A DNA stretch of 24,000 nt from an uncultured Coriobacteriaceae bacterium (GCA_902779675.1 CACZCK010000029.1:613-24612), one strand, 5' to 3'. Numbered from the stretch's first letter, positions 1-20,120 are shown. Notes: a model not told the origin generated them from the letters alone. Made by a program: numbers and translations.

Positions 1-18
1 AAGCTCCTCGATAGTCAT
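1..18 (-). CDS. 5' end of a minus-strand gene running off the left edge (MTIEEL...); product unknown
   Basis: The start is the ATG at 18..16 (rc), preceded 8 nt upstream by AAGGAGG (rc of 27-33). Only 6 codons are visible. An in-frame ATG at 60..58 is an alternative start. The gene is divergent from lanM. Confidence 0.4.
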
Positions 19-183
19 ACGTAGCGCCTCCTTCTGTTGTTCGCCAGCTCCCTTGCTCATCCTATAGCTTATACGCTCGATTGGCTCATTCTATCCCACA
101 ATCGCTACGTTGGCCGAACCGTGAAGAGCTCCAAGCGCCGATACTGCCCCATCCCTCGATAAAGAGACCTTCTCCCGTCACCG

Positions 184-189
184 TATAAT
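184..189 (+). promoter_or_regulatory. Candidate -10 hexamer upstream of lanM
   Basis: A perfect TATAAT lies at 184-189, ~145 nt upstream of the lanM ATG. No convincing -35 is present (TCGATA sits at poor spacing). Confidence 0.25.
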
Positions 190-334
190 AGTCACGCGTA
201 CACAACCCTGTCCAAGAAGAGGAAGGCGCGCGCACCATGACCGTCTGCAGGCCACGTAGAAAGGCATTGATAGACGACGGAGGCAAGGCAAACCCCACCG
301 CTGTTGCCAAGAGCAATGCGAGTGTTACTCAAGC

Positions 335-3193
335 ATGGCAGTGCATATGGATGTAACAACCGCAATGGAACAACAGATGGCTCCACTGTACTCGCGAGTG
401 GTTGCGCCGTACCTGGATCAGGCGACTCGCTCACTCGCAGGTACGCGCTTCGAACTGCTGCTTTCGCCCTCATGTCAAAAAGCGCAGCTGATGAGACTCT
501 CGGACACGCTGTGTGCGTATGCACGGGATGTGCTTGCCCATCTTGTTGCCACGCAGCTCTCGCAAGAGAACCCTCTCTGGAGCATAGACGTCACGCTCGC
601 GCCAGTTGCAGAGTTTGCACGTGCAGCAGAGAAGGTAGCCGAGGACCTGAGGGACTCCGATGCGGCCGTGCTGGACGATGTGGCACCCCTCCTTCGCTCC
701 AAGCTTGCGCGGCAGATGAGGCGCTTTGTCTCTGTAAGCTTGGAATCATGCGAGCGAATCTGGCGCGACCGGAACGTACTATCCACTGAGCTCCTCGGTA
801 AGAGCTTTGGCCTTGTGACGGATTTGGCCACCGAACAGAGCGACTGCCATAACGGCGGACGGCACACCACCGTGGTGACCTGCGAGGGCGGGCGCTTCGT
901 GTACAAGCCACGCGACTGTCGCATCGACGTGTGGTTCAAGCAGATCTGTCACAAGTACTTACCCGGCGTGCTCTTGCAGCCGAAGACGATTCTGCGCGAA
1001 GACGATACGGGTTCTTGGGCCTATCAGGAGTTCATGACACGCGATCCCGTGGACGATGAAGGGGGAGTTGCCCTCTACTGGCGCAACATGGGTCGCGCGT
1101 TCGCGATCTTTCACATGCTGGGGTCAGAGGATCTTCACGCCGAGAACTTCGTGGCGGTCGGAGAGCAGCCATCTCTCATCGATTGCGAGACGGTGATTAC
1201 GGGTGAGCCCGCCATGCGCGGCGACCCGCTTGTAAGCCCCAACATGAGCCACGTCTCCAAAGGCTTTGGGCGCGACCTTGCTGCAACACTTGTCATGAGC
1301 GGTCTACTTCCCTCCCCCAAATGGCCGCAAGCTTTCGGGGGCACGCAACGCCTCGCCCCTTCGGGCGACACGAGTCCGCTCCTCGCCCACGGCAAGAGCT
1401 GCCTGCCCATGCTGGCAGGCAGCGAGTACGACGTGCTTGGATACGAGGACGAGCTCTTTGGCGGATTCGAGGAGAGTCTGGCAGCACTCTCCTCCGTCTC
1501 TGATGCGCTCTGCGACGATCTGCAATCGGCATCGGGCATTCCGGTACGCCGTCTCATGCGAGACACAAGCGTCTACGGGCACGTACTCGCACGATTGCAA
1601 CGCACCGATGCCTATGATCCAACTGTTCGCGAGAAACTCCTTGAGGCCCTACATCGACCGTTCGTGCGTGGTCAAGAGTCCGCGAGGTCGCCCCTCGCGC
1701 AGAGCGAGGCAGCGTCCCTGCTCGTGGGCGACATACCATACTTCTACGCTGACGCACAGTCGCGTACCATCATGGGTTCCGATGGCACAGCTGACGACCT
1801 CCTTCTGGAGTCCAGTGCCATAGAGCGGGCAGGTACGCGCATAACATCTCTGGATGCGCAGCAGAGCATCTTTGCACGCGCAGTGGTAAGGGCCAATGTG
1901 CGTCGCGCGCTCGTGCCAGACCAGTCGGATGCCCCTGCATGCGTGGCCGCAAGGGAGCCGCTCACTGTCGAGGAGGCTCTCACAGAGGCGGGACATGTGT
2001 TTGACACGCTCGAAGGAATGGCTTTGATGTCACCATCGGGAGAGGAATCGTGGCTCTTCCGCGGCGAACACAAGGGCACGCTTGGCCAATCCACGATAGC
2101 TTTCGCAAACGGGTTGGGAGGCGTAGCAGTGTTCTTGGCTGCGTTCGCGGCGAGAGCGACGACCGATACGGCGCGCAGCCGTGCATTCGAGCTGCTCGAT
2201 GGCTGTCTCTCTCGTGTGGATGAGGTGCTCGAGGTCTTGGAGAACACTCGAACCATACCGGAGCGTTCGGTAGGGCTGGGCATCGCCAACGGACTCGGAG
2301 GCGTCGTCCGCTCGCTTGATCTTGTAGTGCGAGCGCTCGGCACCAGTGACACATGCGAGAAGCCTGCAGCATGTGCCACCCAGCTCCTTCTGCGTAGCAT
2401 TCCAGTGCTCGAGAAGGCAGATATAGAGGGCGCTGTACATCTGGATGTCTACTCAGGAGCTGCGGGAATGCTTCTCGCGCTCTCACAGTGCGATCTCGCG
2501 AGGAGGAGCTCTCGGGCAAAGGGGGTTGCAAAACGCTTGGCCCTGCAGCTTCTCAATGCGCGGACCCTTGTGACGAAGGATGGAGCCAGGCTGTGTGACA
2601 CGATGGGCACAAACTGGCCTGCAAGCGGTTTTGGCCATGGCCAAGCAGGCATAGGCGTGGCGTTCTCGGCGGCATCGAAGGCGTATGGAATTGATGCAAA
2701 CGACGCCTGCCAAGACAGCCTTGCCTGGGAGCTCGCGGCCCACAGCGAAAGACTCGGCACCTGGCCCGACCTGCGCAGGCTCCCCCTCTCGAGCAGGCAC
2801 ATGCACGGTGTCTGTTCAGGTGCACCCGGCGTAGGCCTTTGCGCCCTCTCCGTGCGTGATGAGACAGCAGACGATGCGGCATGTCTGCTTGCCAACAGGC
2901 TGCTCGTGCGCGCTGACAAGGCATGTCGAACGCTCCCCCCCAACTATCGCGACACACTCTGTTGTGGCAATGGCTCCCTCATCGAGTATCTGGTGTCAGC
3001 AGGACGCACAGACGACGCAGGGTGCCTGCTTGCGGGCATAGTCAAGAGACAGCGGTTGCTTGGCCACTATGTGTTCATGCCCAAAGGCGTGCGCCCCACT
3101 GACGATCCAAGTCTCCTGTATGGCCTCGCCGGCATTGGCTATGAGCTGCTTCGCTACGCCGACCCCGCTCTCGTTGGCATCTTTGTAGGTTGA
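335..3193 (+). CDS. lanM: Class II lanthipeptide synthetase (LanM: dehydratase plus LanC-like cyclase)
   Basis: This is a 952-aa ORF. The N-terminal half carries LanM dehydratase (DUF4135-type) signatures: DCHNGGRHTTVVTCEGGRFVYKPRD and DLHAENFVAVGEQPSLIDCETV. The C-terminal half carries LanC-like signatures: GFGHGQAGIG, VCSGAPGVG, LCCGNGSLIEYL and LLYGLAGIGYELL. ATG 335 has no clear SD, so ATG 347, 365 or 377 are alternative starts. Confidence 0.9.
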   Translation: MAVHMDVTTAMEQQMAPLYSRVVAPYLDQATRSLAGTRFELLLSPSCQKAQLMRLSDTLCAYARDVLAHLVATQLSQENPLWSIDVTLAPVAEFARAAEKVAEDLRDSDAAVLDDVAPLLRSKLARQMRRFVSVSLESCERIWRDRNVLSTELLGKSFGLVTDLATEQSDCHNGGRHTTVVTCEGGRFVYKPRDCRIDVWFKQICHKYLPGVLLQPKTILREDDTGSWAYQEFMTRDPVDDEGGVALYWRNMGRAFAIFHMLGSEDLHAENFVAVGEQPSLIDCETVITGEPAMRGDPLVSPNMSHVSKGFGRDLAATLVMSGLLPSPKWPQAFGGTQRLAPSGDTSPLLAHGKSCLPMLAGSEYDVLGYEDELFGGFEESLAALSSVSDALCDDLQSASGIPVRRLMRDTSVYGHVLARLQRTDAYDPTVREKLLEALHRPFVRGQESARSPLAQSEAASLLVGDIPYFYADAQSRTIMGSDGTADDLLLESSAIERAGTRITSLDAQQSIFARAVVRANVRRALVPDQSDAPACVAAREPLTVEEALTEAGHVFDTLEGMALMSPSGEESWLFRGEHKGTLGQSTIAFANGLGGVAVFLAAFAARATTDTARSRAFELLDGCLSRVDEVLEVLENTRTIPERSVGLGIANGLGGVVRSLDLVVRALGTSDTCEKPAACATQLLLRSIPVLEKADIEGAVHLDVYSGAAGMLLALSQCDLARRSSRAKGVAKRLALQLLNARTLVTKDGARLCDTMGTNWPASGFGHGQAGIGVAFSAASKAYGIDANDACQDSLAWELAAHSERLGTWPDLRRLPLSSRHMHGVCSGAPGVGLCALSVRDETADDAACLLANRLLVRADKACRTLPPNYRDTLCCGNGSLIEYLVSAGRTDDAGCLLAGIVKRQRLLGHYVFMPKGVRPTDDPSLLYGLAGIGYELLRYADPALVGIFVG

Positions 3194-3222
3194 CCGGCCG
3201 GTCACAAGGGAGGTCACTCAAG

Positions 3223-4197
3223 ATGAGAGACATGCTGTTCTCTGTTCTGTGCGGAATGCTGGCCGCAAGAGGCAGAGACGAGTCGCTGCTCGGTGATGAT
3301 AGAGCGGAGGCGCAATCGGCTTTCGCCCGCATGATGCCAGAACTTGGCAGAATCCATGCATACTTTGAGGTTCCGCTTACGGGTGAGCGAGGTCTCGACG
3401 TGCACTGTTGTGTGGACGATGCGGTGCCTGCAAGCTGTGTGCCGGACTCTGCTGACCCTGCATGGAAAGACGCCCTCGCGTGGTTTAGCGGCATTGCCCC
3501 CGTGCAAGCCAAGAGCGGTAGGGTGCTGCTTATGGCCGAGGCGGATACGAGCATGAACCCTTGCGCTCGTCCCGGCACCTACCTGATTCAACGCGAACGA
3601 CACGATCTTGTGGAGCCCTACCTTGCGGCTGTCAAAGAGGACGGCAGGCTTTCCGGATGGCAGGATTATTGCGCTCATCTTCCAAGGGGATGGAAGACGA
3701 GCTACGTTGGCCTCTTTCCTGGACGAGCGGGTGGCCATCTGCGCGTGAACGCACACCCATCTGTCGAGGCCTTGTGTCTTGATGAGGTGCTTGCGGAGCT
3801 CGGGCTATCAGTGGACAAGGAGTCGCTCGACCTCTGCCAAGAGCTGGTGACCGATGCATTGGGCTATGACATACAGTTGGACATAGACGACTGGGGAGTA
3901 CCCTTACCGGACTTTGCATTGGAGGTCTTCCTCGAAGGCACCGTGCCGCCCCGAGCCCCCGGGAACGATGGTCGTGTTGAGCGCGTCTTCGCACGCATGG
4001 AAGCAAGTGGCGCTGCCGACGCTCGTTGGCACCACCTCATGGGTGCGGATGTCTCCAAGCGTGTGACGTTGCCCCATTCAGGTGCGATGATCCCTTGCGC
4101 CGTGAGTCTGCGCACGTTTTCTGCAAAGGTGAGGTTCTCGGGCGGCAAGCCGTCTCTCTCTAAGGCCTACCTACGTGGTGACGCATGCGCCTTCTAA
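3223..4197 (+). CDS. Hypothetical protein (324 aa), probably co-transcribed with lanM; no family recognised
   Basis: ATG 3223 lies 9 nt after AAGGGAGG (3206-3213) and 30 nt after the lanM stop. The ORF-track start at 3190 is a TTG overlapping the lanM stop and is less likely. Third-position GC bias looks coding-like. The protein has 10 Cys and many short beta-strand-like segments (YFEV, VLLMAEAD, TYLIQRE, LRVNAHP, YDIQLDID, FALEVFLE, AKVRFSGG, KAYLRG). Confidence 0.75.
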   Translation: MRDMLFSVLCGMLAARGRDESLLGDDRAEAQSAFARMMPELGRIHAYFEVPLTGERGLDVHCCVDDAVPASCVPDSADPAWKDALAWFSGIAPVQAKSGRVLLMAEADTSMNPCARPGTYLIQRERHDLVEPYLAAVKEDGRLSGWQDYCAHLPRGWKTSYVGLFPGRAGGHLRVNAHPSVEALCLDEVLAELGLSVDKESLDLCQELVTDALGYDIQLDIDDWGVPLPDFALEVFLEGTVPPRAPGNDGRVERVFARMEASGAADARWHHLMGADVSKRVTLPHSGAMIPCAVSLRTFSAKVRFSGGKPSLSKAYLRGDACAF

Positions 4198-4316
4198 CAA
4201 GGTTCGCGTTGCAACGAGGAGACTGGCCCTGGGCCGTAACGCGGATCTTGCCAGAAGAAACTGACTCCTCCCTTCCGGTGTGAATCATCCCAAGAGGAGC
4301 CTTTTCTAGTGAAGTA

Positions 4317-4616
4317 AAGTGGTGCGCCGATCTCTCGTACGCACCACTTCTGACCTGCGGTTTTGTTGTCTTTTGGGGCGGAGCGTGAAAGACCGTTGCG
4401 ACCCTATTTTCACTCCCACTCAATCAGGATTGCGTTGCTATGGTAGCCCTAGGTGGCTCGGAGCGAGCCCTCGTGCCCACGCTGTCCGTCGTAGTTCCGA
4501 CTATCGTCTCCGCAGACGTCAAAGCGACGTCACGCGCGCTGTTCCCGCACCCGTGACGTCGCCTCACTCGAAGTCGGGTGACGTCATGACGTCACCCGAC
4601 AGTGTTTGCGCTGGTA
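4317..4616. repeat. Copy A of a ~300-bp non-coding element (5' hairpin module, 87-nt divergent core, GACGTC-palindrome module)
   Basis: By hand alignment it is homologous to 5913-6210 in the same orientation: about 85/111 identity in the 5' module, 51/87 in the core and 92/102 in the 3' module. The 5' hairpin is AAGTGGTGCG (4317-4326) paired with CGCACCACTT (4339-4348). It has five GACGTC sites (4515, 4526, 4555, 4580, 4588) and a perfect 28-nt palindrome at 4573-4600. Confidence 0.85.
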
Positions 4617-4648
4617 ATCATATGTGTCGATTATCAAACGGCAGGCGT

Positions 4649-5002
4649 CTAGCGCAGGAGCTCGCCTTCGAAGTACTGCTCCTGAAAGCGAATCGCCCGC
4701 AGTATCTCCTCGTCAGGGTAATCGGAGCCATCCAGAGAGACAATCCACTTGTCCTCCACATCATCCAGGCGGTGATACACGGCTATGACCTTGCCTTCGA
4801 ACGACTCGATCGGCTCGTCAGTGCCGAGCACATAGACGTCCTGTTCCTCGCCGTCACCCGCGATGACTCCGTCTACGAAGCCGTAGTTCACGGGATACAC
4901 CATGTCAGAGTGCCGGGGATGGCGGCTCCCGATGGGACGGTCGATCGTGCCCACGACAATCCTCCCGATGACGTCTTTTGCCAGGTCGTCTCTCCAAACC
5001 AT
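4649..5002 (-). CDS. Short family-I inorganic pyrophosphatase-like protein (117 aa)
   Basis: YPVNYGFVDGVIAGDGEEQDVYVL and HRLDDVEDKWIV match the family-I PPase core (YPxNYGFxP..DGDxxDVxVL and D..DxK). The N-terminal strand bearing the EIPxGSxxKYE motif is reduced to IDRPIGSRHPRH. The SD GGGGAG lies 8 nt upstream of the ATG and overlaps the stop of the preceding ORF. Confidence 0.8.
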   Translation of the reverse strand: MVWRDDLAKDVIGRIVVGTIDRPIGSRHPRHSDMVYPVNYGFVDGVIAGDGEEQDVYVLGTDEPIESFEGKVIAVYHRLDDVEDKWIVSLDGSDYPDEEILRAIRFQEQYFEGELLR

Positions 5003-5015
5003 TGCCGCTGCTCCC

Positions 5016-5237
5016 CTACGCCCAGAGGCCTCTGCGCGAGACCGCGTAGAGCGGCACGTTGCGCATCCACTCCTGCTCTCGGTAGCCCGAGAGGCTGAAG
5101 CGCACGGCCGACACCTCGGGATGGGCGCCCTTGAACGCGCGGAGACTCTTCGCCCGCAGGTTCTCCTCGGCCTTCACCTCGGTGGCGAACGTGCTGCCGC
5201 CTCTCGGCATGATCTTCATTATGCTCATCTTCGCCAT
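5016..5237 (-). CDS. Small hypothetical protein (73 aa, MAKMSIMKIMPRGGSTFATEVKAEENL...)
   Basis: This is the internal ATG of the 5016..5483 ORF; the stretch upstream of it is Arg/Pro-rich nonsense that overlaps the P-loop gene. From the ATG onward third-position G/C bias is strong. Its TAG stop sits inside the SD of the downstream PPase-like gene, which suggests translational coupling. No family was recognised. Confidence 0.5.
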   Translation of the reverse strand: MAKMSIMKIMPRGGSTFATEVKAEENLRAKSLRAFKGAHPEVSAVRFSLSGYREQEWMRNVPLYAVSRRGLWA

Positions 5238-5302
5238 TCTCGCCTGCCTTATGGCCCTGCGTCTGCTGGCGTGCGGGCTGGTGGTGCTGTGTCTTCTCGC
5301 CC

Positions 5303-5797
5303 TTATCGGTGGATGATCCGATCCGCCGCCATCACGGGCGTGAGGCCGGTGGTGTCCATCTTCTCGCCACCCAGGGCGTCGTAGAGCGGGAGCCTTGCCA
5401 GGCTGCGGCCGATGACGTCGGGCTGGCGGATTCCCGCGGAGACGTCCTTCCCCAAGCGGCGGCAGAGCTCTTCCTCCGAGCACACGAGGGAAATCGTCCT
5501 CACCAGGCAGCTTGAAACGTCAAGGCGCGAAAGCAAATCGTTGACGATCTCCTGCTCGTGCATGACCCAGCAGAAGATGACATTCTCATAGGCGCTACAG
5601 CGAATGAAGTTGTTCAGCACGTGGCAGATGTTGTCCATCACCATAGCCTTGGTCTCGTCGGTCACCACGAAGGGGGCTGCGTCCCAGCACCAGTCTCCGT
5701 CGAGCAGCACCGCGTTCGGCAACATCCGTTTGAGCTCTTGGCACGTGGCCGTCTTGCCTACACCCATGGTTCCGCCTATGAGGTAGAGCGTCTTCAT
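5303..5797 (-). CDS. P-loop NTPase / small-molecule or nucleotide kinase-like protein (164 aa)
   Basis: A Walker A motif, GGTMGVGKT, occurs in MKTLYLIGGTMGVGKTATCQEL, followed by LLDGDWCW. The size and layout fit the shikimate/gluconate-kinase-like AAA fold. I place the start at ATG 5797 (AAAGGA lies 9 nt upstream) rather than the ORF-track 5833, which overlaps the predicted -10. Confidence 0.85.
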   Translation of the reverse strand: MKTLYLIGGTMGVGKTATCQELKRMLPNAVLLDGDWCWDAAPFVVTDETKAMVMDNICHVLNNFIRCSAYENVIFCWVMHEQEIVNDLLSRLDVSSCLVRTISLVCSEEELCRRLGKDVSAGIRQPDVIGRSLARLPLYDALGGEKMDTTGLTPVMAADRIIHR

Positions 5798-5831
5798 CGT
5801 GCGCGTCCTTTTCGTTCTCGCTCTTCCCATC

Positions 5832-5860
5832 ATTGTAAGCGGTGTTTTTGACGTGGGTCA
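5832..5860 (-). promoter_or_regulatory. Candidate promoter of the P-loop/small ORF/PPase-like operon
   Basis: On the minus strand, TGACCC (rc of 5855-5860) is followed by a 17-nt spacer and TACAAT (rc of 5832-5837). This sits ~30 nt upstream of ATG 5797. Confidence 0.35.
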
Positions 5861-5912
5861 TTCTTCATCTTGCCTATTCGCACGGTTGGAGGAGGTTACC
5901 GCCTGTGGGACG

Positions 5913-6210
5913 AAGTGGTGCTCCGAATTCTCGGACACACCACTTTTGCCCTGCGCAAACGTTGTAATTTGGGTAGACCGTGAAAGAGCGTTGCGAGCCT
6001 AAAAAACTCCCACCCAATCAGAGAGACGTGGATGTGGCAGATTGTGGTGGTTCGAGACGCTCCATCGTATCCCCTGTCTCCACCGTGGTTCTGACAATCC
6101 TCCCTGCGGACGTCAAAGCAACGTCACGGGCACCGTTCCCGCGCCCGTGACGTCGCCTCACTCGCAGTCGGGCGACGTCATGACGTCGCCCGACCGAGTT
6201 TGCGCTGGTA
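5913..6210. repeat. Copy B of the ~300-bp non-coding element
   Basis: It is homologous to 4317-4616. The 5' hairpin pairs AAGTGGTG (5913-5920) and TCCGA (5922-5926) with TCGGA (5931-5935) and CACCACTT (5938-5945), followed by TTG to give CACCACTTTTG. GACGTC sites lie at 6109, 6149, 6174 and 6182, with AACGTC at 6120. A perfect 28-nt palindrome lies at 6167-6194. Confidence 0.85.
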
Positions 6211-6333
6211 GCGATGGCAAAAGAACCGAAGCACACGCTTAGCTCATGACATAGCGAGTGCCGCGGCCTGAACCTTGGACGCGAATCAGGCCCTTGGCCA
6301 CATTTCTAAGGCCCCCGCGTGCCACGCCAATCG

Positions 6334-6936
6334 CTAGAACAGGCGAACGAGCCACACCATCAGCAGCCCGACTGCCGCACCGACGAGCATGCCGGCGAGC
6401 ACCTTCCCCATGACGCTCGCAGCGAACGGCCTCTGGACGCGCTGCGCCCTGATCTCGTCCAGGGGCTTGCCGTCCACGAACGCCCTTATCTCGCGATATG
6501 TCTGCACGTCGTACTTCTTCTTGGCCTTCTCGACGAGAAAGGTGAAGTACAGGGCGATCACGTAGACGAGCAGGCACATCGCGAGCGCGAGCCAGTTTTC
6601 GTGGTCGAACGCCACCCCCGCCACGACCAACGACACGATGGCAAGCGAGCTTGAGATTGCCGTGTTGCGCCTGAACTCCCTCACGTCCTCCTCCGCGGCC
6701 CTCGCGTCCTCTTCCTCGATTCTTGCAGCGATCATGGGTAGGTCTCCTTTCACGAGTTCGTCTATGGAGGTCCCGAAGTGGCCGGCGATAAGGCTCAGGC
6801 TCTGCACGTCCGGATAGGACTTGCCGTTCTCCCAATTCGAGATCGTCTGGCGGCTCACGAACGCCTTCTCTGCCAGCTCCTCCTGCGACATCCCGGCCTC
6901 CGTTCGCAGGTCGCGTATCACCTTGCCCACTTCCAT
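6334..6936 (-). CDS. XRE-family helix-turn-helix regulator with C-terminal transmembrane segments
   Basis: The N-terminus IRDLRTEAGMSQEELAEKAFVSRQTISNWENGKSYPDVQSLSLIAGHFGTSIDELV is a classic Cro/C1 HTH. Hydrophobic stretches are ISSSLAIVSLVVAGVAF, LALAMCLLVYVIALYFTFLV and VLAGMLVGAAVGLLMVWLV. The SD AGGAGG lies 6 nt upstream of ATG 6936. Confidence 0.9.
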   Translation of the reverse strand: MEVGKVIRDLRTEAGMSQEELAEKAFVSRQTISNWENGKSYPDVQSLSLIAGHFGTSIDELVKGDLPMIAARIEEEDARAAEEDVREFRRNTAISSSLAIVSLVVAGVAFDHENWLALAMCLLVYVIALYFTFLVEKAKKKYDVQTYREIRAFVDGKPLDEIRAQRVQRPFAASVMGKVLAGMLVGAAVGLLMVWLVRLF

Positions 6937-6993
6937 TTCTGCCTCCTTCCAAGCCTTGTGGATCCTACCCTAGATGGTCCTTGCGCCATTGTC

Positions 6994-7044
6994 TGTCAAA
7001 TGGCGTTGCGAAAGGGCCGAAAACGGTGTCAAAACCCTTTGACA
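6994..7044. promoter_or_regulatory. Candidate operator/promoter region of the XRE gene
   Basis: TGTCAAA occurs at 6994-7000 and 7027-7033. TTTGACA at 7038-7044 forms a perfect 7-bp inverted repeat with a 4-bp spacer (TGTCAAAACCCTTTGACA). The motifs contain TTGACA -35-like hexamers on both strands. No good -10 was found. Confidence 0.35.
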
Positions 7045-7266
7045 TCCGCCTTTTGCTGGGTTTCTTTCCGTCTTCATCGGGTCTGTGACAATGGAGGATG
7101 CTGCTGCCACCAAACGACGAAGGGGGCGGCATGCTCGACGGATACGGACTTCACATGATCATCTGGGATTCGGCGGACGAGCGACTGGGTGACTTCCTGG
7201 TCGCCTCGTGAACCCAGCCACAAAACGTTTGGCTAGCAGGCACACGAATCCTCAAGGCGCAATCGG

Positions 7267-7336
7267 GTAGGAGGCGCGCCATTAGTTGGCGCGCCGTCCT
7301 CCCACACCACCGTGCGTACCGTTCGGTACACGGCGG
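7267..7336 (-). ncRNA. Intron ribozyme domains V and VI
   Basis: Domain V is CCGCCGTGTACCG-AA-CGGTACGCACGGTGG (rc of 7307-7336), with a 2-nt bulge and a CGC catalytic triad in place of AGC, as in IIC introns. Domain VI is GGGAGGAC-GGCGCGCC-AACTAAT-GGCGCGCC-TCCT[A]CCC (rc of 7267-7303), with a bulged A ~7 nt from the predicted 3' splice site. Confidence 0.8.
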
Positions 7337-7345
7337 TTCCCGGAC

Positions 7346-8761
7346 TTAACACTTCGCCTGCAGGTAACGGGGGTAGAAGAGGGTCCAGCCAAGCTCCGTG
7401 GGCTTGGCGTTGTCGAGCGCCCGGTCTAGGATGCCGCTCCCGGCCACGCGCCAGTATGCCTTGCGCGAGTTCGCCCACTGCCACGCCCGTCCCCGGCTGA
7501 CGCCGAGGCGCACGAGGGCGCGGAGTCTGGTGCCAACCCGTTTCCAGCACTTCCAGTACACGCAGCGCACCTTTCGGCGCGCCCACTTGTCCATGCCGCG
7601 GAGCAGGCTCCTCATGTCCGCGAGCCTGAAGTACCCGACCCATCCGTAGACGAGGTCCCTGAGCATGGCTTTCCTTGTCCCGAAGGACCAACCGTTGGAG
7701 CGCGAGAGAATCATCCGCACCTTGTCCCTGAGCGCGGCGACCGACTTGGGGTGCACGCAAAAGCGCAGCTCCCCGTCCTTCTGGTAGAAGGCGTACCCCA
7801 AGTATCCCACCTCGTCAGATATCTTCGCCACGAAGGACTTCTCCCTGTTGACCTTGAGGAAAAGCCTCCCCTCGACGAATGCCGCCATCGACTCCATCGC
7901 GCGCTCCGCCGCCTTCCTCGACCTCTTCAGGATGATGAAGTCGTCGGCGTAGCGGACGAAGGCGTGGCCCCTGCGCTCAAGCTCCCAGTCCAGCTCGTTG
8001 AGCAGGATGTTCGCGAGCAGGGGCGAGAGCGGGCCTCCCTGAGGGGTGCCCTCGTCGGTCGGCATCACGACGCCGTCCACCATGACACCCGCCATCAGGA
8101 AGCGGTGGATGAGCGAGACCACCCGCTTGTCCACGAGCGAGTCCGACAGGAGCTGCACCAGCTTGGACTGGTTCACGGTGTCGAAGAAGCGCTCCAGGTC
8201 CATCGACGCGACCCACACGCTGCCTTCGTCGGCACGCCTCTTGGCTGCCAGGAGCGCGTCGTGCGCCGAGCGGTTCGGCCTGAAGCCGTATGAGTCCCCG
8301 TGGAACCTCGGTTCGAAGATGGGCGTGAGCTGCTGCGCCACAGCCTGCTGGACCATGCGGTCCACGACCGTGGGTATCCCCAGAAGCCTGACCTTTCCCT
8401 TCTCCTTCTTCGGAATCTCGACCCGCCTCACGGGTCTGGGCCGGTACCTCCCGTTGAGAATCCTCGCCTCGAGCGCGTCGTAGTTGTTCCGCAGCCAGTC
8501 GTCGAGCTCGTCCGCCCGCATCCCGTCCACGCCGCCCGCGCCTCGGTTCTGCGCCACGCGCCTATATGCCCCGCGCATGTTCTCGCGTGAGCAGATCCTT
8601 TCCAGCAGGAATCTCGTGTTGCCTTCATCCGTGTTGAGTTCGTCCTCTTCGGTGTTCCGTGCGCGCGTCGGCGCCTCCGGCTGCTCCCGGGATTCCGTCC
8701 CTACCCTCCCCGGCTGGCCCTCGAAGTCGATTCGAAGTTGTCTGCCTTCCATCGCGTGCAT
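7346..8761 (-). CDS. Group II intron reverse transcriptase/maturase (no endonuclease domain)
   Basis: RT motifs are present: NRGAGGVDGM, LLGIPTVVDRMVQQA, SYGFRPNRSAHDAL, TPQGGPLSPLLANILLNELD and FVRYADDFIIL. A maturase X/thumb region follows (YLGYAF, WVGYFRLA). No HNH tail is present. The N-terminal ~55 aa look like an extension, so the true start may be internal. Confidence 0.95.
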   Translation of the reverse strand: MHAMEGRQLRIDFEGQPGRVGTESREQPEAPTRARNTEEDELNTDEGNTRFLLERICSRENMRGAYRRVAQNRGAGGVDGMRADELDDWLRNNYDALEARILNGRYRPRPVRRVEIPKKEKGKVRLLGIPTVVDRMVQQAVAQQLTPIFEPRFHGDSYGFRPNRSAHDALLAAKRRADEGSVWVASMDLERFFDTVNQSKLVQLLSDSLVDKRVVSLIHRFLMAGVMVDGVVMPTDEGTPQGGPLSPLLANILLNELDWELERRGHAFVRYADDFIILKRSRKAAERAMESMAAFVEGRLFLKVNREKSFVAKISDEVGYLGYAFYQKDGELRFCVHPKSVAALRDKVRMILSRSNGWSFGTRKAMLRDLVYGWVGYFRLADMRSLLRGMDKWARRKVRCVYWKCWKRVGTRLRALVRLGVSRGRAWQWANSRKAYWRVAGSGILDRALDNAKPTELGWTLFYPRYLQAKC

Positions 8762-8864
8762 GGTCTCTCTCAGCGACTCCCTCCGTCTGGGTTCGGGCCT
8801 TCGCGGCTGGCGCCGCCGCTACTACGCCCTCTGCTGACTCCTCGCGGTTCGCTGTTGCTGCTCG

Positions 8865-8915
8865 GCTGGCCCTTTCGTCCAAATCCTCGAAGCTGGCCCT
8901 CTCGTCCAAATCCTC
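8865..8915. repeat. Tandem duplication (24-nt unit, 27-nt period, 2 copies) inside the intron
   Basis: The units are GCTGGCCCTTTCGTCCAAATCCTC (8865-8888) and GCTGGCCCTCTCGTCCAAATCCTC (8892-8915), with 23/24 identity. They lie ~100-150 nt 5' (intron sense) of the RT start. Confidence 0.8.
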
Positions 8916-9196
8916 TTAGCCTGCGAGGCCTCCCGGGTAAGGCACGCACCCTTCCCCTCAATACCCGCCGCATTTACGTGCGTGGCTTCCGTGCAGCCAT
9001 CGGGCTTCGATGTGTTTGGCCATCTCACCCGCCGCGCCCGCCTGATGCGGTTCGTGTTCCTCGGGCCGAGGTTTCGCCTCCGGCTTCCTTCAGACTCCGC
9101 CTCGCGACGGACGCCCTTGCCATCGGCTACGCGCTTCCCGCTGCCGGGCGCGCCGGGGACTTTCACCCCTTGGGTGTGTGCCATGCCCGGCACACC

Positions 9197-9228
9197 AAAA
9201 AGGGCGCCTCGGATTCTTCCGAGGCGCC
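9197..9228 (-). terminator. Rho-independent terminator of guaA
   Basis: The minus strand has an 11-bp stem GGCGCCTCGGA/TCCGAGGCGCC (9203-9213 paired with 9218-9228), a 4-nt loop and then TTTTT (rc of 9197-9201). It starts ~30 nt after the guaA stop. Confidence 0.85.
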
Positions 9229-9259
9229 TCGCGTTTTCGCAGGTAAATAAGCTAATCCG

Positions 9260-10258
9260 TTACTCCCACTCGACCGTCGCGATGGGCTTCGGCGAAAGCT
9301 CGTAGGCCACGCGGCAGATGCCGGGCACCTCGGCCAGGATGCGGTCGCACATCTTGTGCAGCAGCGCCCAGTCGAGCTCGGGCACCTCGGCGGTCATGAC
9401 GTCGACGGTGTTGATGCAACGGATGATGCACGGCCACTCGAAGGCGCGCTTGCCGTCGCGCACGCCCGTCGCGCGATAGTCGGGCACCACGCAGAAGTAC
9501 TGCCACGGACGCTCCATCTGGCCGGCGGCGGAGGCAGCGTCAATCTCCTCGCGCACGATGGCGTCGGCCTCGCGCAGGGCATTCAGGCGGTCGCGGGTGA
9601 TGGCGCCGGTGCAGCGCACGCCCAGGCCGGGGCCGGGGAACGGCTGACGGTCGACCATGCTGTCGGGCAGGCCAAGCTGGCGACCAACCACGCGGACCTC
9701 GTCCTTGAAGAGCAGCTTGACGGGCTCGACGAGCTCCCAGTTGAGCTCCTCGGGCAGGCCACCCACGTTGTGGTGCGCCTTGACGCCCGCCTCGGACTCC
9801 AGGATGTCGGGGTAGATGGTGCCCTGGCCGAGGAAGCCGATGCCCTCGAGCTTGGCGGCCTCCTCGTCAAAGACCTTGATGAACTCCTCGCCGATGATGT
9901 GGCGCTTGGCCTCGGGATCGGCCTCGCCGGCCAGCAGGTCGAGGAAGCGGTCAGTCGCGTCAACGTAGATGAGCTCGGCGCCCAGCTGGTTGCGGAACAC
10001 GTCGATGACCTGCTCGGACTCGCCCTTGCGCATGAGGCCGTGGTTGACGTGCACGCACACGAGCTGCTTGCCCAGGGCCTTGATCAGCAGGGCCGCGACC
10101 ACGCTGGAGTCCACGCCGCCGGAGAGGGCCAGCAGCACCTTGCCATCGCCCACCTGCTCGCGGGTGTAGGCAACGGCCTCCTCGATGAAGGCGTCGGCGA
10201 GCTCGGGGGTGGTGATGCGAACCATATCGTCGGGGCGGTGATTGCTGGTGAAGTCCAT
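9260..10258 (-). CDS. guaA: GMP synthase, ATP-pyrophosphatase plus dimerisation part only (332 aa, no GATase domain)
   Basis: It has the PP-loop LALSGGVDSSVVAALL, then VHVNHGLMRKGE and GQGTIYPDILES, and the typical C-terminal end KPIATVEWE. The SD AAGGAG lies 5 nt upstream of ATG 10258. The ORF aligns with the C-terminal ~330 residues of a full-length GuaA. Confidence 0.9.
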   Translation of the reverse strand: MDFTSNHRPDDMVRITTPELADAFIEEAVAYTREQVGDGKVLLALSGGVDSSVVAALLIKALGKQLVCVHVNHGLMRKGESEQVIDVFRNQLGAELIYVDATDRFLDLLAGEADPEAKRHIIGEEFIKVFDEEAAKLEGIGFLGQGTIYPDILESEAGVKAHHNVGGLPEELNWELVEPVKLLFKDEVRVVGRQLGLPDSMVDRQPFPGPGLGVRCTGAITRDRLNALREADAIVREEIDAASAAGQMERPWQYFCVVPDYRATGVRDGKRAFEWPCIIRCINTVDVMTAEVPELDWALLHKMCDRILAEVPGICRVAYELSPKPIATVEWE

Positions 10259-17461: not shown

Positions 17462-18031
17462 ATGGCTCGAAAGCGGCATACCGGCACGCGTCTGCGCATG
17501 CGGGTCGAGGGAAGGGTGGCGCAGGCCAAGCGGCGTGCGGCGGCCAACGCTACACCCGTGCCGTCAGGCGGACGCGTCGCCCGGTTCCTGCGCTTCATGG
17601 GATCCTCGCTCGCCTGCACCGTCATCGACCAGGTGCTGGCCGGCGTCCTGTTCCTACTCCTTCGCAAGCCCATGAGAGGCATGGGGTTCCTGCGCATCCT
17701 CGTGGGAACCGTCATCGCGCGCGTCGTCTCGCAGACGGTCAACTACTCCCTCAACCACCGGCTCGTCTTTGCTGGCGGAAGTGCCCAGGCGCAACGTCCC
17801 TCCCGACGCGAGAGCCTGCCGCGCTTCCTCGCGGTCGCAGCCTTCGTGCTCTCGCTCTCCACCTTGGGTGTCTACCTGCTGCACACCCGCTTTGGCATCG
17901 TGGAGCCTGTCGCCAAGGTCGGCGTCGACGCCACGCTCTTCTTTCTCAACTACTACCTGCAGCGCAACTGGGTGTTTACCACCGAACCCACCATCAGTCC
18001 GCGCAAGGCACTCAAGAGACCTCGGAGCTAG
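17462..18031 (+). CDS. GtrA-family membrane protein
   Basis: It has FLRFMGSSLACTVIDQVLAGVLF, VNYSLNHRLVF and FFLNYYLQRNWVF across four hydrophobic segments. ATG 17462 lies 2 nt after AAAGGGGGG. Its 3' end overlaps the convergent kinase gene by 20 nt. Confidence 0.8.
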   Translation: MARKRHTGTRLRMRVEGRVAQAKRRAAANATPVPSGGRVARFLRFMGSSLACTVIDQVLAGVLFLLLRKPMRGMGFLRILVGTVIARVVSQTVNYSLNHRLVFAGGSAQAQRPSRRESLPRFLAVAAFVLSLSTLGVYLLHTRFGIVEPVAKVGVDATLFFLNYYLQRNWVFTTEPTISPRKALKRPRS

Positions 18032-19442: not shown

Positions 19443-19445
19443 GGG

Positions 19446-20120
19446 CTACCCCTGGATCCGATAGCCCACGCCGCGGACCGTCTGGATGAGGCCCGCGCTC
19501 TCACCGAGCTTGGACCGCAGCGTCTGCACGTGGACGTCGACCGTGCGAGAGCCGCCGTCGAAGTCCCAGCCCCAGACGCGCCGCAGCAACGTCTCGCGCG
19601 AGAACACCTCGCCTGGCGAGCCCATCAGAAAGGCAAGCAGATCGAACTCGCGCATGGTGAGCGAGAGCGGCTGGCCGTCGAGCTCGGCCGTGCGGCGCGA
19701 GGGCCACAGCTTGACCAGACCCACCTCGAGCGGAGCGCTGGGCTCCTGTAGGCTTCGGTTGGAGCGCCTGAGCAGCGCGCGAACCCTGCTGACCATCTCC
19801 ATCATGCCGAAGGGCTTTGCCAGATAGTCGTCGGCGCCGCCGTCGAGGGCACGCACGGTGTCGAGCTCGCTGTCCTTGGCAGTGAGCATCATGACCGGAA
19901 CGTTGCGCATCTCCCTGCTGTGACGGATGCGCGCCAGAATGGCCAGGCCGTCGGTATCGGGAAGCATGATGTCGAGCAGCACGGCATCGGGCAGCCGCTC
20001 GGCACACGCCTGCCGGAACTCGGCGTCATCGGCGCATCCGCGTGCCTCGAGCCCCGCCTGCGTGAGCGCGTACACGGTGAGCTCACGGATGTTGGTGTCG
20101 TCCTCGACGTAATAGATCAT
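19446..20120 (-). CDS. OmpR/PhoB-family response regulator
   Basis: The receiver domain has MIYYVEDD, LLDIMLPDTDGL and MLTAKD. The winged-helix domain has VDVHVQTLRSKLG and IQTVRGVGYRI. ATG 20120 lies 5 nt after GAGGAGGG; the ORF-track start at 20147 is less likely. Confidence 0.93.
   Translation of the reverse strand: MIYYVEDDTNIRELTVYALTQAGLEARGCADDAEFRQACAERLPDAVLLDIMLPDTDGLAILARIRHSREMRNVPVMMLTAKDSELDTVRALDGGADDYLAKPFGMMEMVSRVRALLRRSNRSLQEPSAPLEVGLVKLWPSRRTAELDGQPLSLTMREFDLLAFLMGSPGEVFSRETLLRRVWGWDFDGGSRTVDVHVQTLRSKLGESAGLIQTVRGVGYRIQG

What the first reader, a model, noticed from the sequence alone, without database searches (positions are those of the whole stretch)
335..4197. Orphan LanM with a Cys-Cys-Gly cyclase motif and no visible precursor, transporter or protease
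The 952-aa protein is a clear class II lanthipeptide synthetase. At the position of the usual Cys-His zinc ligands (CHG), its cyclase domain reads TLCCGNGS (C-C-G at 2960-2968). As I recall the ProcM literature, the CCG subgroup has three Cys zinc ligands. It is also associated with relaxed specificity and with many substrates encoded away from the enzyme. Consistent with that, I found no SD-preceded small ORF with a Cys/Ser/Thr-rich core in the 334 bp upstream or the ~450 bp downstream. No LanT-type peptidase-ABC transporter or LanP is adjacent either. The only partners are an unknown 324-aa protein and a divergent gene cut off by the window edge (MTIEEL...). A CCG-type LanM in a high-GC Gram-positive with an unknown companion would be an unusual RiPP locus.
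Basis: partly seen in the sequence, partly recalled or inferred. Interest (0 to 1): 0.6.

Follow-up and report, generated by a model that had tools for sequence, protein, structure and literature searches.

The report
Likely prenylated lanthipeptide cluster, not orphan
The supposed orphan lanthipeptide synthetase has its precursor peptide gene, cut off by the window edge, and its unknown neighbour looks like a very divergent peptide prenyltransferase, so this rumen Coriobacteriaceae locus probably makes a lipid-tagged ring peptide of a kind so far shown only in cyanobacteria.

Summary
The ORFs and the motif are real. ORF 335-3193 is a class II lanthipeptide synthetase, and its C876-C877-G878 lies in the alignment column where ordinary LanMs carry the Cys-His zinc ligands.

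The "orphan" reading fails. The divergent gene cut by the left edge (MTIEEL...) is the precursor. Its full length was recovered from contigs that share the window's DNA. It is 91 aa: a Nif11-type leader with an L(X)4L motif that ends in ...EKVAGG, then a 21-aa core, TGYFEGVLSVVIMEPACFEDD.

The 324-aa companion has no Pfam, NCBIfam or PDB sequence match. Its AlphaFold model (pLDDT 90) is an ABBA prenyltransferase barrel, and all top 39 Foldseek PDB hits are aromatic prenyltransferases. A profile of its family aligns over its full length (HHalign probability 94%) with the MppC-position gene of a Moorena producens locus. In the published mpp cluster, a Nif11 precursor, a LanM and the prenyltransferase MppC make a geranylated lanthipeptide.

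No LanT or LanP is adjacent here. Relatives carry a C39-peptidase ABC transporter, a second ABC transporter, a second prenyltransferase-like gene and a geranylgeranyl-reductase-like gene.

Best reading: a minimal three-gene prenyl-lanthipeptide cluster in a rumen Coriobacteriaceae genome. It is a new variant of a recently described kind, and its chemistry is untested.

The parts
1..18 (-). First six codons (MTIEEL) of lanA, the precursor gene, truncated by the window edge. The full 91-aa product is MTIEELYGKVLADEGLKAQLAEAAKAGKLSEWMAKQGVDATEEELLAYARALVEDGKELSEDELEKVAGG | TGYFEGVLSVVIMEPACFEDD.
   Evidence: The full gene was read from contigs that share the window's DNA (L001:2386-2661(-); 99.9% DNA identity over window 1-4423 in L002, L004, L010 and L012). 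It matches TIGR03798 Nif11-like leader at E 2e-7 (31.1 bits, cut-off 32.3), and the profile match ends at the GG. Against the L049 variant, the 19 aligned core residues are identical while the leader differs at 11 of 70 positions, and dN/dS is 0.20.
185..214 (-). Promoter-like site (TGGACA-18-TATTAT) upstream of lanA in the divergent intergenic region.
   Evidence: Consensus scan, 10 of 12 matches. The count is not above the shuffle expectation, so this is weak.
335..3193 (+). lanM, a class II lanthipeptide synthetase of 952 aa.
   Evidence: Pfam DUF4135 and LANC_like, and TIGR03897 above its cut-off. PDB relatives are LicM2 and CylM. dN/dS is 0.25 against the 75%-identical L049 orthologue.
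686..1750 (+). Dehydratase (DUF4135) domain, residues 118-472.
   Evidence: The CylM alignment keeps the motifs SDCHNGGR / VYKPR / DLHAENF / IDCET opposite CylM GDSHSRGK / VYKPK / DLHYENI / IDNET.
2105..3166 (+). LanC-like cyclase domain, residues 591-944. It holds His768 (2636-2638), Cys827 (2813-2815) and Cys876-Cys877-Gly878 (2960-2968).
   Evidence: column-by-column alignment with CHG-type and CCG-type LanMs; residue positions.
2960..2968 (+). The CCG motif at the position of the second and third zinc ligands.
   Evidence: It is in the same alignment column as CHG in 12 generic LanMs and as CCG in Moorena MppM and P0041, P0044 and P0051. It aligns to CylM C911-H912.
3208..3213 (+). Shine-Dalgarno sequence GGGAGG of the prenyltransferase-like gene, 9 nt before the ATG at 3223. 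The lanM stop codon is at 3191-3193.
   Evidence: Sequence read.
3223..4197 (+). ABBA-fold (PT-barrel) prenyltransferase-like gene of 324 aa, here called lanPT. It is the proposed leader-dependent peptide prenyltransferase.
   Evidence: No Pfam, NCBIfam or PDB sequence hit. The AF2 model has pLDDT 90 and pTM 0.89 with repeated alpha-beta-beta-alpha units. The Foldseek PDB top 39 hits are all aromatic prenyltransferases. HHalign of the family against the Moorena MppC-position protein gives probability 93.8% over 301 columns. Invariant across 71 family members: E49, D108, R168, D266, R268, K302, Y316. dN/dS is 0.19.
4410..4423 (.). Right boundary of the conserved lanA-lanM-lanPT block. It is the junction of a variable integration site.
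   Evidence: blastn of the window against L012, L004, L010 and L002.

Best explanation
The locus is a compact three-gene cluster for a prenylated class II lanthipeptide in a rumen Coriobacteriaceae bacterium.

1. lanA is divergent and mostly lies beyond the left edge. It gives a 91-aa precursor. Its Nif11-type leader has a helical N-terminal part, an acidic stretch with an L(X)4L motif (LSEDEL) and a double-glycine site.
2. LanM binds the leader and dehydrates Ser/Thr of the 21-aa core. Using a zinc site with three Cys ligands (C827, C876, C877; the ProcM-type CCG arrangement), it adds the single Cys17 to a dehydro residue. The most likely partner is Dha9, which would give a 9-residue lanthionine ring. 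A relative shares the motif S/T-h-h-I-x-E/Q-P-x-C.
3. The 324-aa ABBA-barrel enzyme then transfers an isoprenyl group from a prenyl diphosphate to the cyclised, still leader-bearing peptide. The core has no Trp, so the acceptor is probably an aromatic side chain, with Tyr3 the leading candidate.
4. Leader removal after GG and export must be done by a C39-peptidase ABC transporter encoded elsewhere. Relatives have one next to the cluster.

Shown: the gene identities, the position of the motif, the fold, the remote homology to the Moorena gene, the co-occurrence of the genes, and purifying selection. Inferred: every chemical step, the ring position, the prenyl donor and the acceptor residue.
For: - **LanM identity and intact motifs:**
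- **Precursor:** it matches TIGR03798 at E 2e-7, with the profile match ending exactly at GG. The core holds one Cys plus Thr1 and Ser9.
- **Companion protein:** a high-confidence ABBA barrel. Foldseek finds only prenyltransferases down to rank 39, after which probability collapses to 0.15 or less at ranks 40-43.
- **Conserved residues:** charged and Tyr residues fall on the predicted beta strands at alternating (i, i+2) positions. This is the pattern expected for residues that line a barrel and bind diphosphate.
- **Link to MppC:** the family profile aligns end to end with the 375-aa gene next to the MppE homologue in a Moorena producens locus (HMM 22 bits; HHalign probability 93.8%, E 1.7e-7). 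The LanM of that locus is also CCG-type.
- **Published precedent:** MppE (Nif11 leader), MppM (class II LanM) and MppC (ABBA prenyltransferase) give a lanthipeptide geranylated on Trp, and the prenylation depends on the leader (PMC12715784).
- **Co-occurrence:** seven non-redundant locus types carrying a LanM of this clade (window type, L015/L019, L018, L046, L047, L048, L049) all have a prenyltransferase-like gene next to it; in L046 only a partial match is seen near the end of the fetched DNA. A Nif11-type precursor was found in all of them except L018, which is cut off inside lanM.
- **Prenyl-chain enzyme in relatives:** the closest family match of the neighbouring flavoenzyme is the geranylgeranyl reductase family (TIGR02032, E 8e-38), below that model's cut-off (130.8 bits against 158.8).
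- **Selection:** dN/dS is about 0.2 for all three genes, and the 19 aligned core residues are unchanged at 75% LanM identity.
- **Prevalence:** the exact 324-aa protein is indexed in 86 blocks of the assembly collection.
Against: - No biochemical data exist for any member of this prenyltransferase-like family.
- Sequence identity to the Moorena gene is only 18%, and to solved prenyltransferases 8-14%. TM-scores are 0.4-0.55.
- The Nif11 match is 1.2 bits below NCBI's cut-off.
- The window core has no Trp, which is the acceptor in MppC, so the acceptor is a guess.
- No transporter or protease for maturation is in the window or in 7 kb of left flank. The cluster also lacks the second prenyltransferase-like gene, the reductase-like gene and the transporters seen in relatives, so it could be a reduced and non-productive remnant.
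- The Moorena gene I compared comes from a strain whose MppE is 87% identical to the published one. It was identified as the MppC counterpart by position and homology, not by accession.
Confidence: 0.6

Rival explanations
1. One reading: an orphan, promiscuous ProcM-type LanM whose real substrates are many precursors encoded elsewhere in the genome. The neighbouring genes would then be incidental.
For: - The CCG motif is the ProcM-type signature (PMC13509491).
- The same MAG carries other loci with double-glycine-leader peptides and prenyltransferase-like pairs but no LanM within the fetched DNA (L022, L025). Action in trans on further precursors is therefore possible.
Against: - A cognate Nif11-type precursor lies 317 bp upstream.
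- It co-varies with LanM in five other locus types of this clade.
- Its core is held constant.
- Only one precursor gene lies next to the enzyme, so nothing here requires a many-substrate system.
Confidence: 0.1
2. The cluster is a decaying remnant. lanA, lanM and the 324-aa gene persist, but without a transporter/protease, reductase or second prenyltransferase no mature product is made.
For: - Relatives (L015/L019, L014) carry a C39-peptidase ABC transporter, a second ABC transporter, a geranylgeranyl-reductase-like gene and a second prenyltransferase-like gene that are missing here.
- The locus sits beside an integration hot spot and toxin-antitoxin genes.
Against: - All three ORFs are intact.
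- dN/dS is 0.19-0.25 against a 75%-identical orthologous trio with the same three-gene layout.
- Identical proteins recur in many independent rumen assemblies.
- By established knowledge, prochlorosin systems also keep their transporter elsewhere in the genome.
Confidence: 0.15
3. The 324-aa protein has the ABBA fold but is not a prenyltransferase for the peptide. It could be a leader-binding scaffold or chaperone, an immunity protein, or a small-molecule aromatic prenyltransferase.
For: - It belongs to no curated prenyltransferase family.
- The structural match is only moderate (TM about 0.5).
- The window core lacks Trp.
Against: - To my knowledge, all characterised proteins with this fold are prenyltransferases.
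- Polar, basic and Tyr residues on the barrel strands are invariant across 71 divergent members.
- The gene is tightly linked, with near translational coupling (29 nt after the lanM stop), to RiPP precursors and LanM in several lineages.
- It is homologous to the MppC-position gene.
Confidence: 0.15

Closest known systems
mpp cluster of Moorena producens: MppE (Nif11-leader precursor), MppM (class II LanM) and MppC (ABBA prenyltransferase). Wakeel, McShan and Agarwal, JACS 2025, PMC12715784. Related: steromaze-type isoprenoid RiPPs, Hubrich et al., Chem 2024.
   Same: - A Nif11-type leader with an acidic L(X)4L stretch and a GG site.
- A CCG-type LanM (Moorena: HLCCGNFG; window: TLCCGNGS).
- A soluble ABBA-fold enzyme encoded beside them.
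- The prenyltransferase families are remotely homologous over their full length.
- Short cores with a single lanthionine-forming Cys.
   Different: - The prenyltransferases are only about 18% identical and cannot be linked by BLAST or Pfam.
- The host is an anaerobic rumen Coriobacteriaceae (Actinomycetota), not a cyanobacterium. The paper's network of MppC-like sequences is dominated by Cyanobacteriota, Myxococcota and Pseudomonadota, and its supplement mentions no Actinomycetota or Bacillota.
- The window core has no Trp, whereas MppC geranylates Trp82.
- The halogenase and oxidase genes seen in the Moorena locus are absent here.
- Relatives instead add a geranylgeranyl-reductase-like flavoenzyme.
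ProcM and the prochlorosins (and SyncM): CCG-type class II synthetases with Nif11/NHLP-leader substrates.
   Same: - CCG at the zinc-ligand position.
- A Nif11-like leader ending in GG.
- The transporter/protease is not adjacent.
   Different: - Only one adjacent precursor is seen, rather than many dispersed ones.
- A prenyltransferase-like tailoring gene immediately follows lanM (29 nt after its stop codon).
- LanM identity to generic LanMs outside its own clade is about 25%.
Cyanobactin F-family peptide prenyltransferases (PagF, PirF, KgpF, LimF) and small-molecule ABBA prenyltransferases (NphB, CloQ, DMATS).
   Same: - The same PT-barrel fold. PirF and KgpF are among the Foldseek hits, and DMATS1, NphB, EpzP and CloQ are at the top.
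   Different: - No detectable sequence similarity.
- Cyanobactin prenyltransferases act without a leader on N-C macrocycles. Here the context predicts leader-dependent action on a lanthipeptide.

Membership tests
Class II lanthipeptide synthetase (LanM) | N-terminal DUF4135 dehydratase domain plus C-terminal LanC-like cyclase domain in one polypeptide, scoring above the TIGR03897 cut-off | tested here: met
   DUF4135 6e-55; LANC_like 6e-21; TIGR03897 360.6 bits against a cut-off of 304.
Class II lanthipeptide synthetase (LanM) | Cyclase zinc ligands and the catalytic His are present | tested here: met
   His768 (GFGHG), Cys827 (CSGAPG) and Cys876/Cys877 lie in the conserved columns.
Class II lanthipeptide synthetase (LanM) | Dehydration and cyclisation activity on a precursor peptide | not testable with these tools
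   Needs expression and mass spectrometry.
ProcM-type (CCG) LanM subgroup | Cys-Cys-Gly replaces Cys-His-Gly at the second and third zinc-ligand positions | tested here: met
   Same alignment column as CHG of 12 generic LanMs and as CCG of Moorena MppM. Aligns to CylM C911-H912.
ProcM-type (CCG) LanM subgroup | Substrates carry Nif11- or NHLP-type leaders | tested here: met
   The adjacent precursor matches TIGR03798 (E 2e-7).
ProcM-type (CCG) LanM subgroup | One enzyme serves many dispersed precursors | tested here: inconclusive
   One adjacent lanA, and no other Nif11-like ORF in the 24-kb window. Other double-glycine-leader peptides exist on other contigs of the same MAG (L025). The whole genome could not be scanned.
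Nif11-like leader RiPP precursor (TIGR03798 / PF07862) | Match to the leader profile at the curated threshold | tested here: inconclusive
   TIGR03798 31.1 bits against a cut-off of 32.3 (E 2e-7), covering profile positions 7-68 of 68. PF07862 16.9 bits against 23.8.
Nif11-like leader RiPP precursor (TIGR03798 / PF07862) | Double-glycine cleavage site followed by a short Cys/Ser/Thr-containing core, next to a modifying enzyme | tested here: met
   ...ELSEDELEKVAGG | TGYFEGVLSVVIMEPACFEDD, divergent from lanM.
ABBA (PT-barrel) aromatic prenyltransferase superfamily | Repeated alpha-beta-beta-alpha units forming a central antiparallel barrel | tested here: met
   AF2 pLDDT 90 and the order of secondary-structure elements. 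The top 39 Foldseek PDB hits are all ABBA prenyltransferases (probability 0.84-1.00, best E 8e-7).
ABBA (PT-barrel) aromatic prenyltransferase superfamily | Sequence membership in a curated prenyltransferase family (PTase_Orf2, Trp_DMAT, LynF/TruF/PatF) | tested here: not met
   No Pfam or NCBIfam hit for the window protein or for the 9-10 distant family members scanned in each library. No PDB sequence hit.
ABBA (PT-barrel) aromatic prenyltransferase superfamily | Prenyl-diphosphate binding and transfer | not testable with these tools
   Only indirect support: invariant R168, R268, K302, Y316, E49 and D108 and near-invariant R174 and K314, mostly on the predicted strands.
MppC-like leader-dependent lanthipeptide prenyltransferases | Homology to MppC | tested here: met
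   Remote only: HHalign probability 93.8%, E 1.7e-7, 301 columns, 18% identity to the gene beside the MppE homologue in Moorena locus L045. The MppC sequence itself was not available.
MppC-like leader-dependent lanthipeptide prenyltransferases | Encoded with a class II LanM and a Nif11-leader precursor | tested here: met
   The window, plus L015/L019, L046, L047, L048 and L049.
MppC-like leader-dependent lanthipeptide prenyltransferases | Trp acceptor in the cyclised core | tested here: not met
   The window core TGYFEGVLSVVIMEPACFEDD has no Trp. Some relatives do have Trp (L015 second precursor, L046, L048).
Conventional lantibiotic cluster (lanA-lanM-lanT, with or without lanP) | Adjacent C39-peptidase ABC transporter or LanP protease | tested here: not met
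   None in the window or in the left flank of L002, L009 and L013. Present in the relatives L015/L019 and L014.

The most novel reading that the evidence does not exclude
The 324-aa protein would represent a large, unannotated clade of RiPP prenyltransferases in anaerobes of the rumen and the ruminant gut. The family has 379 representatives at the 50%-identity level, and the members that carry a name are called 'hypothetical protein'. Under this reading it lipidates lanthipeptides and other double-glycine-leader peptides on residues other than Trp: here Tyr or Phe, or conceivably a carboxylate or thiol. In some relatives a geranylgeranyl-reductase-like enzyme would then saturate the chain, giving ribosomal peptides with a saturated isoprenoid anchor. 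That chemistry is not known for RiPPs.
Probability: 0.25. Interest if true: 0.75.

Novelty: new variant of a known kind. Interest (0 to 1): 0.5.

Why it matters
Prenylated lanthipeptides were demonstrated only in 2024-2025, and only from cyanobacteria. If this locus is active, three things follow:

- The chemistry would extend to Actinomycetota of the anaerobic rumen.
- It would reveal a prenyltransferase family that current domain libraries, and therefore tools that depend on them, cannot name.
- It would offer a very small (3.9 kb plus lanA) three-gene system for making lipidated cyclic peptides, with an acceptor residue that cannot be Trp.

The case also shows that "orphan" CCG-type LanMs should be checked for divergent Nif11-type precursor genes before they are assumed to have remote substrates.

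Tried and rejected
- **Sequence searches for the 324-aa protein:** Pfam, NCBIfam and PDB sequence searches gave nothing. The hits at E 0.05 to fungal farnesyltransferase alpha and at E 0.015 to MbtH are short and unsupported by the fold, so I rejected them.
- **Locus search with the broad alignment:** The search for related loci failed with A2 because it has no conserved stretch. The narrower A1 pattern reached only Coriobacteriia.
- **ABC exporter at 20551-22746 as the LanT:** rejected. It has no C39 domain, lies 16 kb away and sits beside a two-component system.
- **Small ORFs at 37-356 and 4160-4423:** none matches the leader profile or has a plausible core.
- **Signals:** no intrinsic terminator was found in 1-4700, and the promoter scan is not above chance.
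- **MppC residue numbers:** the published numbers (W336, F340) could not be mapped with certainty onto the Moorena gene I fetched. I therefore treat the alignment of the window protein's C-terminal Phe324 with that region only as a lead.

Full report
**1. The observation**

The window contains ORF 335..3193 (+, 952 aa) and an ORF ending at 4197. The second ORF's best start is the ATG at 3223, which follows GGGAGG at 3208-3213, giving 324 aa.

The first protein matches Pfam DUF4135 (6e-55, residues 118-472) and LANC_like (6e-21, residues 591-944). It also matches NCBIfam TIGR03897 "type 2 lanthipeptide synthetase LanM" at 360.6 bits, above the cut-off of 304. Its only relatives among solved structures are LicM2 and CylM. 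In the CylM alignment the dehydratase motifs are kept: SDCHNGGR, VYKPR, DLHAENF and IDCET stand opposite GDSHSRGK, VYKPK, DLHYENI and IDNET.

Codons 2960-2968 encode C876-C877-G878. I aligned the cyclase domains of 30 LanMs: the window protein, its clade, generic LanMs and a Moorena MppM homologue.
- The triplet falls in the column where 12 generic enzymes have C-H-G.
- In that same column Moorena MppM and P0041, P0044 and P0051 have C-C-G.
- The other conserved positions are present: His768 in GFGHG and Cys827 in CSGAPG.
- HMMER independently pairs TLCCGNGS with CylM CLCHGN. From my knowledge of the CylM structure, those residues are the zinc ligands Cys911 and His912.

So the ORFs, the coordinates and the ligand-position claim are all correct.

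**2. The precursor is there**

The reverse complement of bases 1-18 reads MTIEEL.

Looking up the exact LanM and 324-aa proteins in public assemblies returned contigs that carry them. Four of these that I compared (L002, L004, L010, L012) are 99.9% identical to window 1-4423 and extend further left. In all of them the divergent gene is 91 aa:

MTIEELYGKVLADEGLKAQLAEAAKAGKLSEWMAKQGVDATEEELLAYARALVEDGKELSEDELEKVAGG | TGYFEGVLSVVIMEPACFEDD

- It matches TIGR03798 "Nif11-like leader peptide family RiPP precursor" with E 2e-7.
- The match covers profile positions 7-68 of 68 and ends exactly at the Gly-Gly.
- The score is 31.1 bits, 1.2 bits under the curated cut-off. The Pfam Nif11 match is weaker.
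- The leader has the acidic L(X)4L stretch (LSEDEL). The core has one Cys (C17), Thr1 and Ser9.

"No visible precursor" therefore fails. lanA starts inside the window and runs off its edge.

Further left lie RelB/ParE toxin-antitoxin genes, a glyoxalase, an HTH regulator and small unknown genes. There is no transporter or protease within about 7 kb. The only ABC exporter in the window, 20551-22746, has no C39 peptidase domain and sits beside a two-component system. "No adjacent LanT or LanP" therefore holds.

**3. The 324-aa companion**

It has no Pfam, NCBIfam or PDB sequence match.
- A word-indexed search of 5.8 billion proteins found 22 relatives, none with a name or a domain.
- A profile search of 1.84 billion cluster representatives found 379 at E up to 1e-3, almost all 320-370 aa.
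- The few members with a source name are "hypothetical protein" from Lachnospiraceae bacterium JC7, Oribacterium sp. C9 and Selenomonas ruminantium.
- Nine to ten distant members again hit no curated family.

An AlphaFold2 model built on the 20-sequence alignment is confident (pLDDT 90, pTM 0.89). It shows alpha-beta-beta-alpha units repeated along the chain.

Foldseek against the PDB returns only ABBA aromatic prenyltransferases for the first 39 ranks: DMATS1, NphB, EpzP, CloQ, MpnD, AtaPT, AmbP1, FamD1, IptA, FtmPT1 and the cyanobactin enzyme PirF. These have probability 0.84-1.00, a best E of 8e-7, TM 0.34-0.55 and 8-14% identity. Probability then collapses to 0.15 or less at ranks 40-43.

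Across 71 family members, down to 17% identity, E49, D108, R168, D266, R268, K302 and Y316 are invariant. D59, R174, Q218 and K314 are nearly invariant. Most of these residues lie on predicted strands at i, i+2 spacing. That is the pattern expected for residues lining the barrel lumen that bind diphosphate and Mg2+. This last point is inference, because I could not inspect the coordinates.

**4. Link to a characterised system**

A literature search found Wakeel, McShan and Agarwal (JACS 2025, PMC12715784).
- In the Moorena producens mpp cluster, the Nif11-leader precursor MppE is cyclised by the class II synthetase MppM.
- It is then geranylated on Trp82 by the ABBA enzyme MppC.
- MppC needs the whole leader, including the L(X)4L motif.
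- The paper cites Hubrich et al. 2024 for another prenylated lanthipeptide. I could not read that paper.

Using the published MppE sequence, I retrieved a Moorena producens locus whose MppE is 87% identical.
- The 375-aa gene next to it has no Pfam domain. It is the only protein of that locus hit by my family HMM at E below 0.01 (22 bits, three collinear segments).
- HHalign of the 71-sequence profile against it gives probability 93.8%, E 1.7e-7 and 301 aligned columns from end to end, at 18% identity. E49, D59, D108, R168, R174, K314 and Y316 are matched.
- The LanM of that locus is also CCG-type (HLCCGNFG).

The window trio therefore has the same architecture as mpp, and its third gene is a remote homologue of the gene at the mppC position.

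The paper's network of MppC-like sequences is dominated by Cyanobacteriota, Myxococcota and Pseudomonadota. Its supplement mentions no Actinomycetota or Bacillota. Full-text searches for rumen or Coriobacteriia together with lanthipeptide or prenyltransferase found nothing.

**5. Organism and relatives**

A scan of species-representative genomes places the window in "MAG: uncultured Coriobacteriaceae bacterium RUG12341", contig CACYWP010000029.1 (L017). The prenyltransferase-like match is reported at 100% identity by that scan and at 99.7% by my tblastn. Its gene sits 1,304 bp further into L017 than in the window (4527 against 3223), so the window begins about 1.3 kb inside the contig. The taxonomy is Actinomycetota, Coriobacteriia. 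All 28 genome hits are MAGs of Coriobacteriaceae, Atopobiaceae, Eggerthellaceae and related uncultured Coriobacteriia; where the record titles name a source, it is a ruminant gut.

The LanM clade is small. About 14 relatives score E below 1e-80, and then identity drops to about 25% with generic LanMs.

Seven non-redundant locus types carry a LanM of this clade. A prenyltransferase-like gene is adjacent in all of them, although in L046 only a partial match is seen near the end of the fetched DNA. A Nif11-type precursor was found in all of them except L018, which is cut off inside lanM.

| Locus type | Precursor core(s) found |
|---|---|
| Window type | TGYFEGVLSVVIMEPACFEDD |
| L049 | TGYFEGVLSVVIMEPACFD |
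| L015/L019 | DGESTHPSTKYIVTIIIPQPTCIG and DDSIFRTATWGTLECYGDFYDK |
| L046 | GYGSFIKSAWSSAKNMYTDYCALTTIF |
| L048 | YLTEIVCSVATLTACWW |
| L047 | partial precursor only |
| L018 | not available (locus cut off inside lanM) |

The fuller cluster L015/L019 reads: geranylgeranyl-reductase-like flavoenzyme, prenyltransferase-like gene, LanM (CCG), LanA, second prenyltransferase-like gene, ABC transporter, C39-peptidase ABC transporter, second LanA. The flavoenzyme's best match is the geranylgeranyl reductase family TIGR02032 at E 8e-38, 130.8 bits, below the 158.8 cut-off. The window version is a reduced form of this cluster.

The reduced form is nevertheless under constraint. Against the L049 orthologues (75% LanM identity, same three-gene layout), dN/dS is 0.20 for LanA, 0.25 for LanM and 0.19 for the prenyltransferase-like gene. 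The 19 aligned core residues are identical, while 11 of 70 leader positions differ.

**6. Most likely mechanism**

- *Shown:* the gene identities, the intact catalytic motifs, the fold, the remote homology, the linkage of the genes and the purifying selection.
- *Inferred, step 1:* LanM binds the Nif11 leader, dehydrates Thr1 and/or Ser9, and adds Cys17 to a dehydro residue. It would use a zinc ion held by three Cys ligands. The window core and the first L015 core share S/T-h-h-I-x-E/Q-P-x-C (SVVIMEPAC and TIIIPQPTC). This points to an i to i+8 ring between Ser9 and Cys17.
- *Inferred, step 2:* the ABBA enzyme prenylates the cyclised, leader-bearing peptide, by analogy with MppC. The core has no Trp, so the acceptor would be Tyr3 (less likely Phe4 or Phe18). 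A Tyr within the first three core residues recurs in the window type and L049 (the same core), L046 and L048. My confidence in the acceptor is low, about 0.3.
- *Inferred, step 3:* a C39-peptidase ABC transporter encoded elsewhere cleaves after GG and exports the product.
- *Unknown:* the prenyl donor. The reductase-like neighbour in relatives hints at longer chains there.

**7. Rivals**

- **A truly orphan, many-substrate ProcM-like enzyme.** This is unlikely as the main story, because a cognate and conserved precursor is adjacent. Action in trans on other double-glycine-leader peptides of the same MAG (L025) is not excluded.
- **A decaying remnant.** The missing transporter supports this. 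Intact ORFs, dN/dS near 0.2 and recurrence in many assemblies argue against it.
- **An ABBA-fold protein with a non-prenyltransferase role.** The invariant polar lumen residues and the linkage to RiPP genes argue against this. Only biochemistry can settle it.

**8. Novelty and verdict**

The "orphan" interpretation is wrong.

The locus is best filed as a new variant of the recently described prenylated class II lanthipeptide clusters. It has the same three-part logic as Moorena mpp. It differs in three ways:
- its prenyltransferase family is invisible to current domain libraries;
- it sits in a new phylum and habitat;
- its core cannot use the known Trp acceptor.

It is a good genome-mining lead rather than a categorically new system. 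I score interest at 0.5.

Noticed in passing
window 4424-9259 (junction 4410-4423 matches 9260-9273): Relative to the otherwise 99.8-99.9% identical contig L012 (the two junction ends are also seen in L004), the window carries a 4.8-kb insertion that starts 226 nt after the stop of the prenyltransferase-like gene. It holds a pyrophosphatase-like gene (4649-5002, -), an AAA_18 kinase-like gene (5303-5833, -), an HTH regulator (6334-6936, -) and a group II intron (RT/maturase 7346-8761, -; Rfam D1-D4 at 8796-9111, -). In L001 and L010 the same junction is followed by a prophage-like element (integrase, primase, terminase), and in L002 by other DNA. It looks like an integration hot spot.
   Followed up: partly
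window 4412-4616 and 6006-6210; also L002:1643-1845, L002:3849-4013, L009:2009-2211: A roughly 205-nt direct repeat (77-84% identity between copies) recurs on both sides of the lan genes. Where I checked, it lies just 3' of a minus-strand gene. It contains two long hairpins rich in GACGTCA. The RNA fold gives -96.8 kcal/mol with z = -4.9 against shuffles. There is no Rfam match. Its nature is unknown: a structured RNA, a REP-like element or a recombination site.
   Followed up: partly
L021, L024, L025, L029, L032, L034, L036, L038, L042 and others (rumen and gut Coriobacteriia); L022 and L025 are other contigs of the same MAG as the window: A more distant branch of the prenyltransferase-like family (about 30% identity), often as tandem pairs of paralogues, lies beside short double-glycine-leader peptides. 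Their leaders read ...ACK..(D/E)EL(V/I)ALA..EG(V/I)EL(T/S)D(D/E)QL..I(A/S)GG. Their cores are Trp- or Tyr-rich, for example SWYDCMNETW, TWYDCMNETW and DSWWCPTATSCPNYEVMR. Most have no LanM within the fetched DNA. Where a LanM is near and its cyclase motif could be read (L029, L038) it is again CCG-type; a further LanM fragment lies at the end of L027. Neighbours in L025 are a DUF362 protein and several proteins with no domain. This looks like an undescribed RiPP group.
   Followed up: partly
L015:4265-5263(-), L019:5537-6532(-), L014:234-1217(-), L028:7178-8146(-): A flavoenzyme of about 330 aa lies directly beside prenyltransferase-like genes in three non-redundant loci. Its best match is the geranylgeranyl reductase family (TIGR02032, E 8e-38, full-length but below the curated cut-off). 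It is absent from the window.
   Followed up: partly
L046:5046-10808 and L047:2958-9039: Some relatives carry two LanM genes side by side. One paralogue (P0027, L046:8001-10808) has WCG instead of CCG and GRG instead of the catalytic GHG. Its cyclase domain may be inactive.
   Followed up: no
left flank of the window, seen in L002, L004, L005, L009 and L010: A RelB/ParE toxin-antitoxin pair, a glyoxalase/bleomycin-resistance-like gene and an HTH regulator lie immediately beyond lanA. In L001 the ParE gene is reduced to a 46-aa ORF.
   Followed up: no
window 18012-22746: A two-component system (histidine kinase 18012-19442, -; response regulator 19446-20147, -) lies next to an ABC exporter without a C39 domain (20551-22746, +). 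It is probably unrelated to the lan genes, and I did not examine it for a role in lantibiotic sensing or immunity.
   Followed up: no
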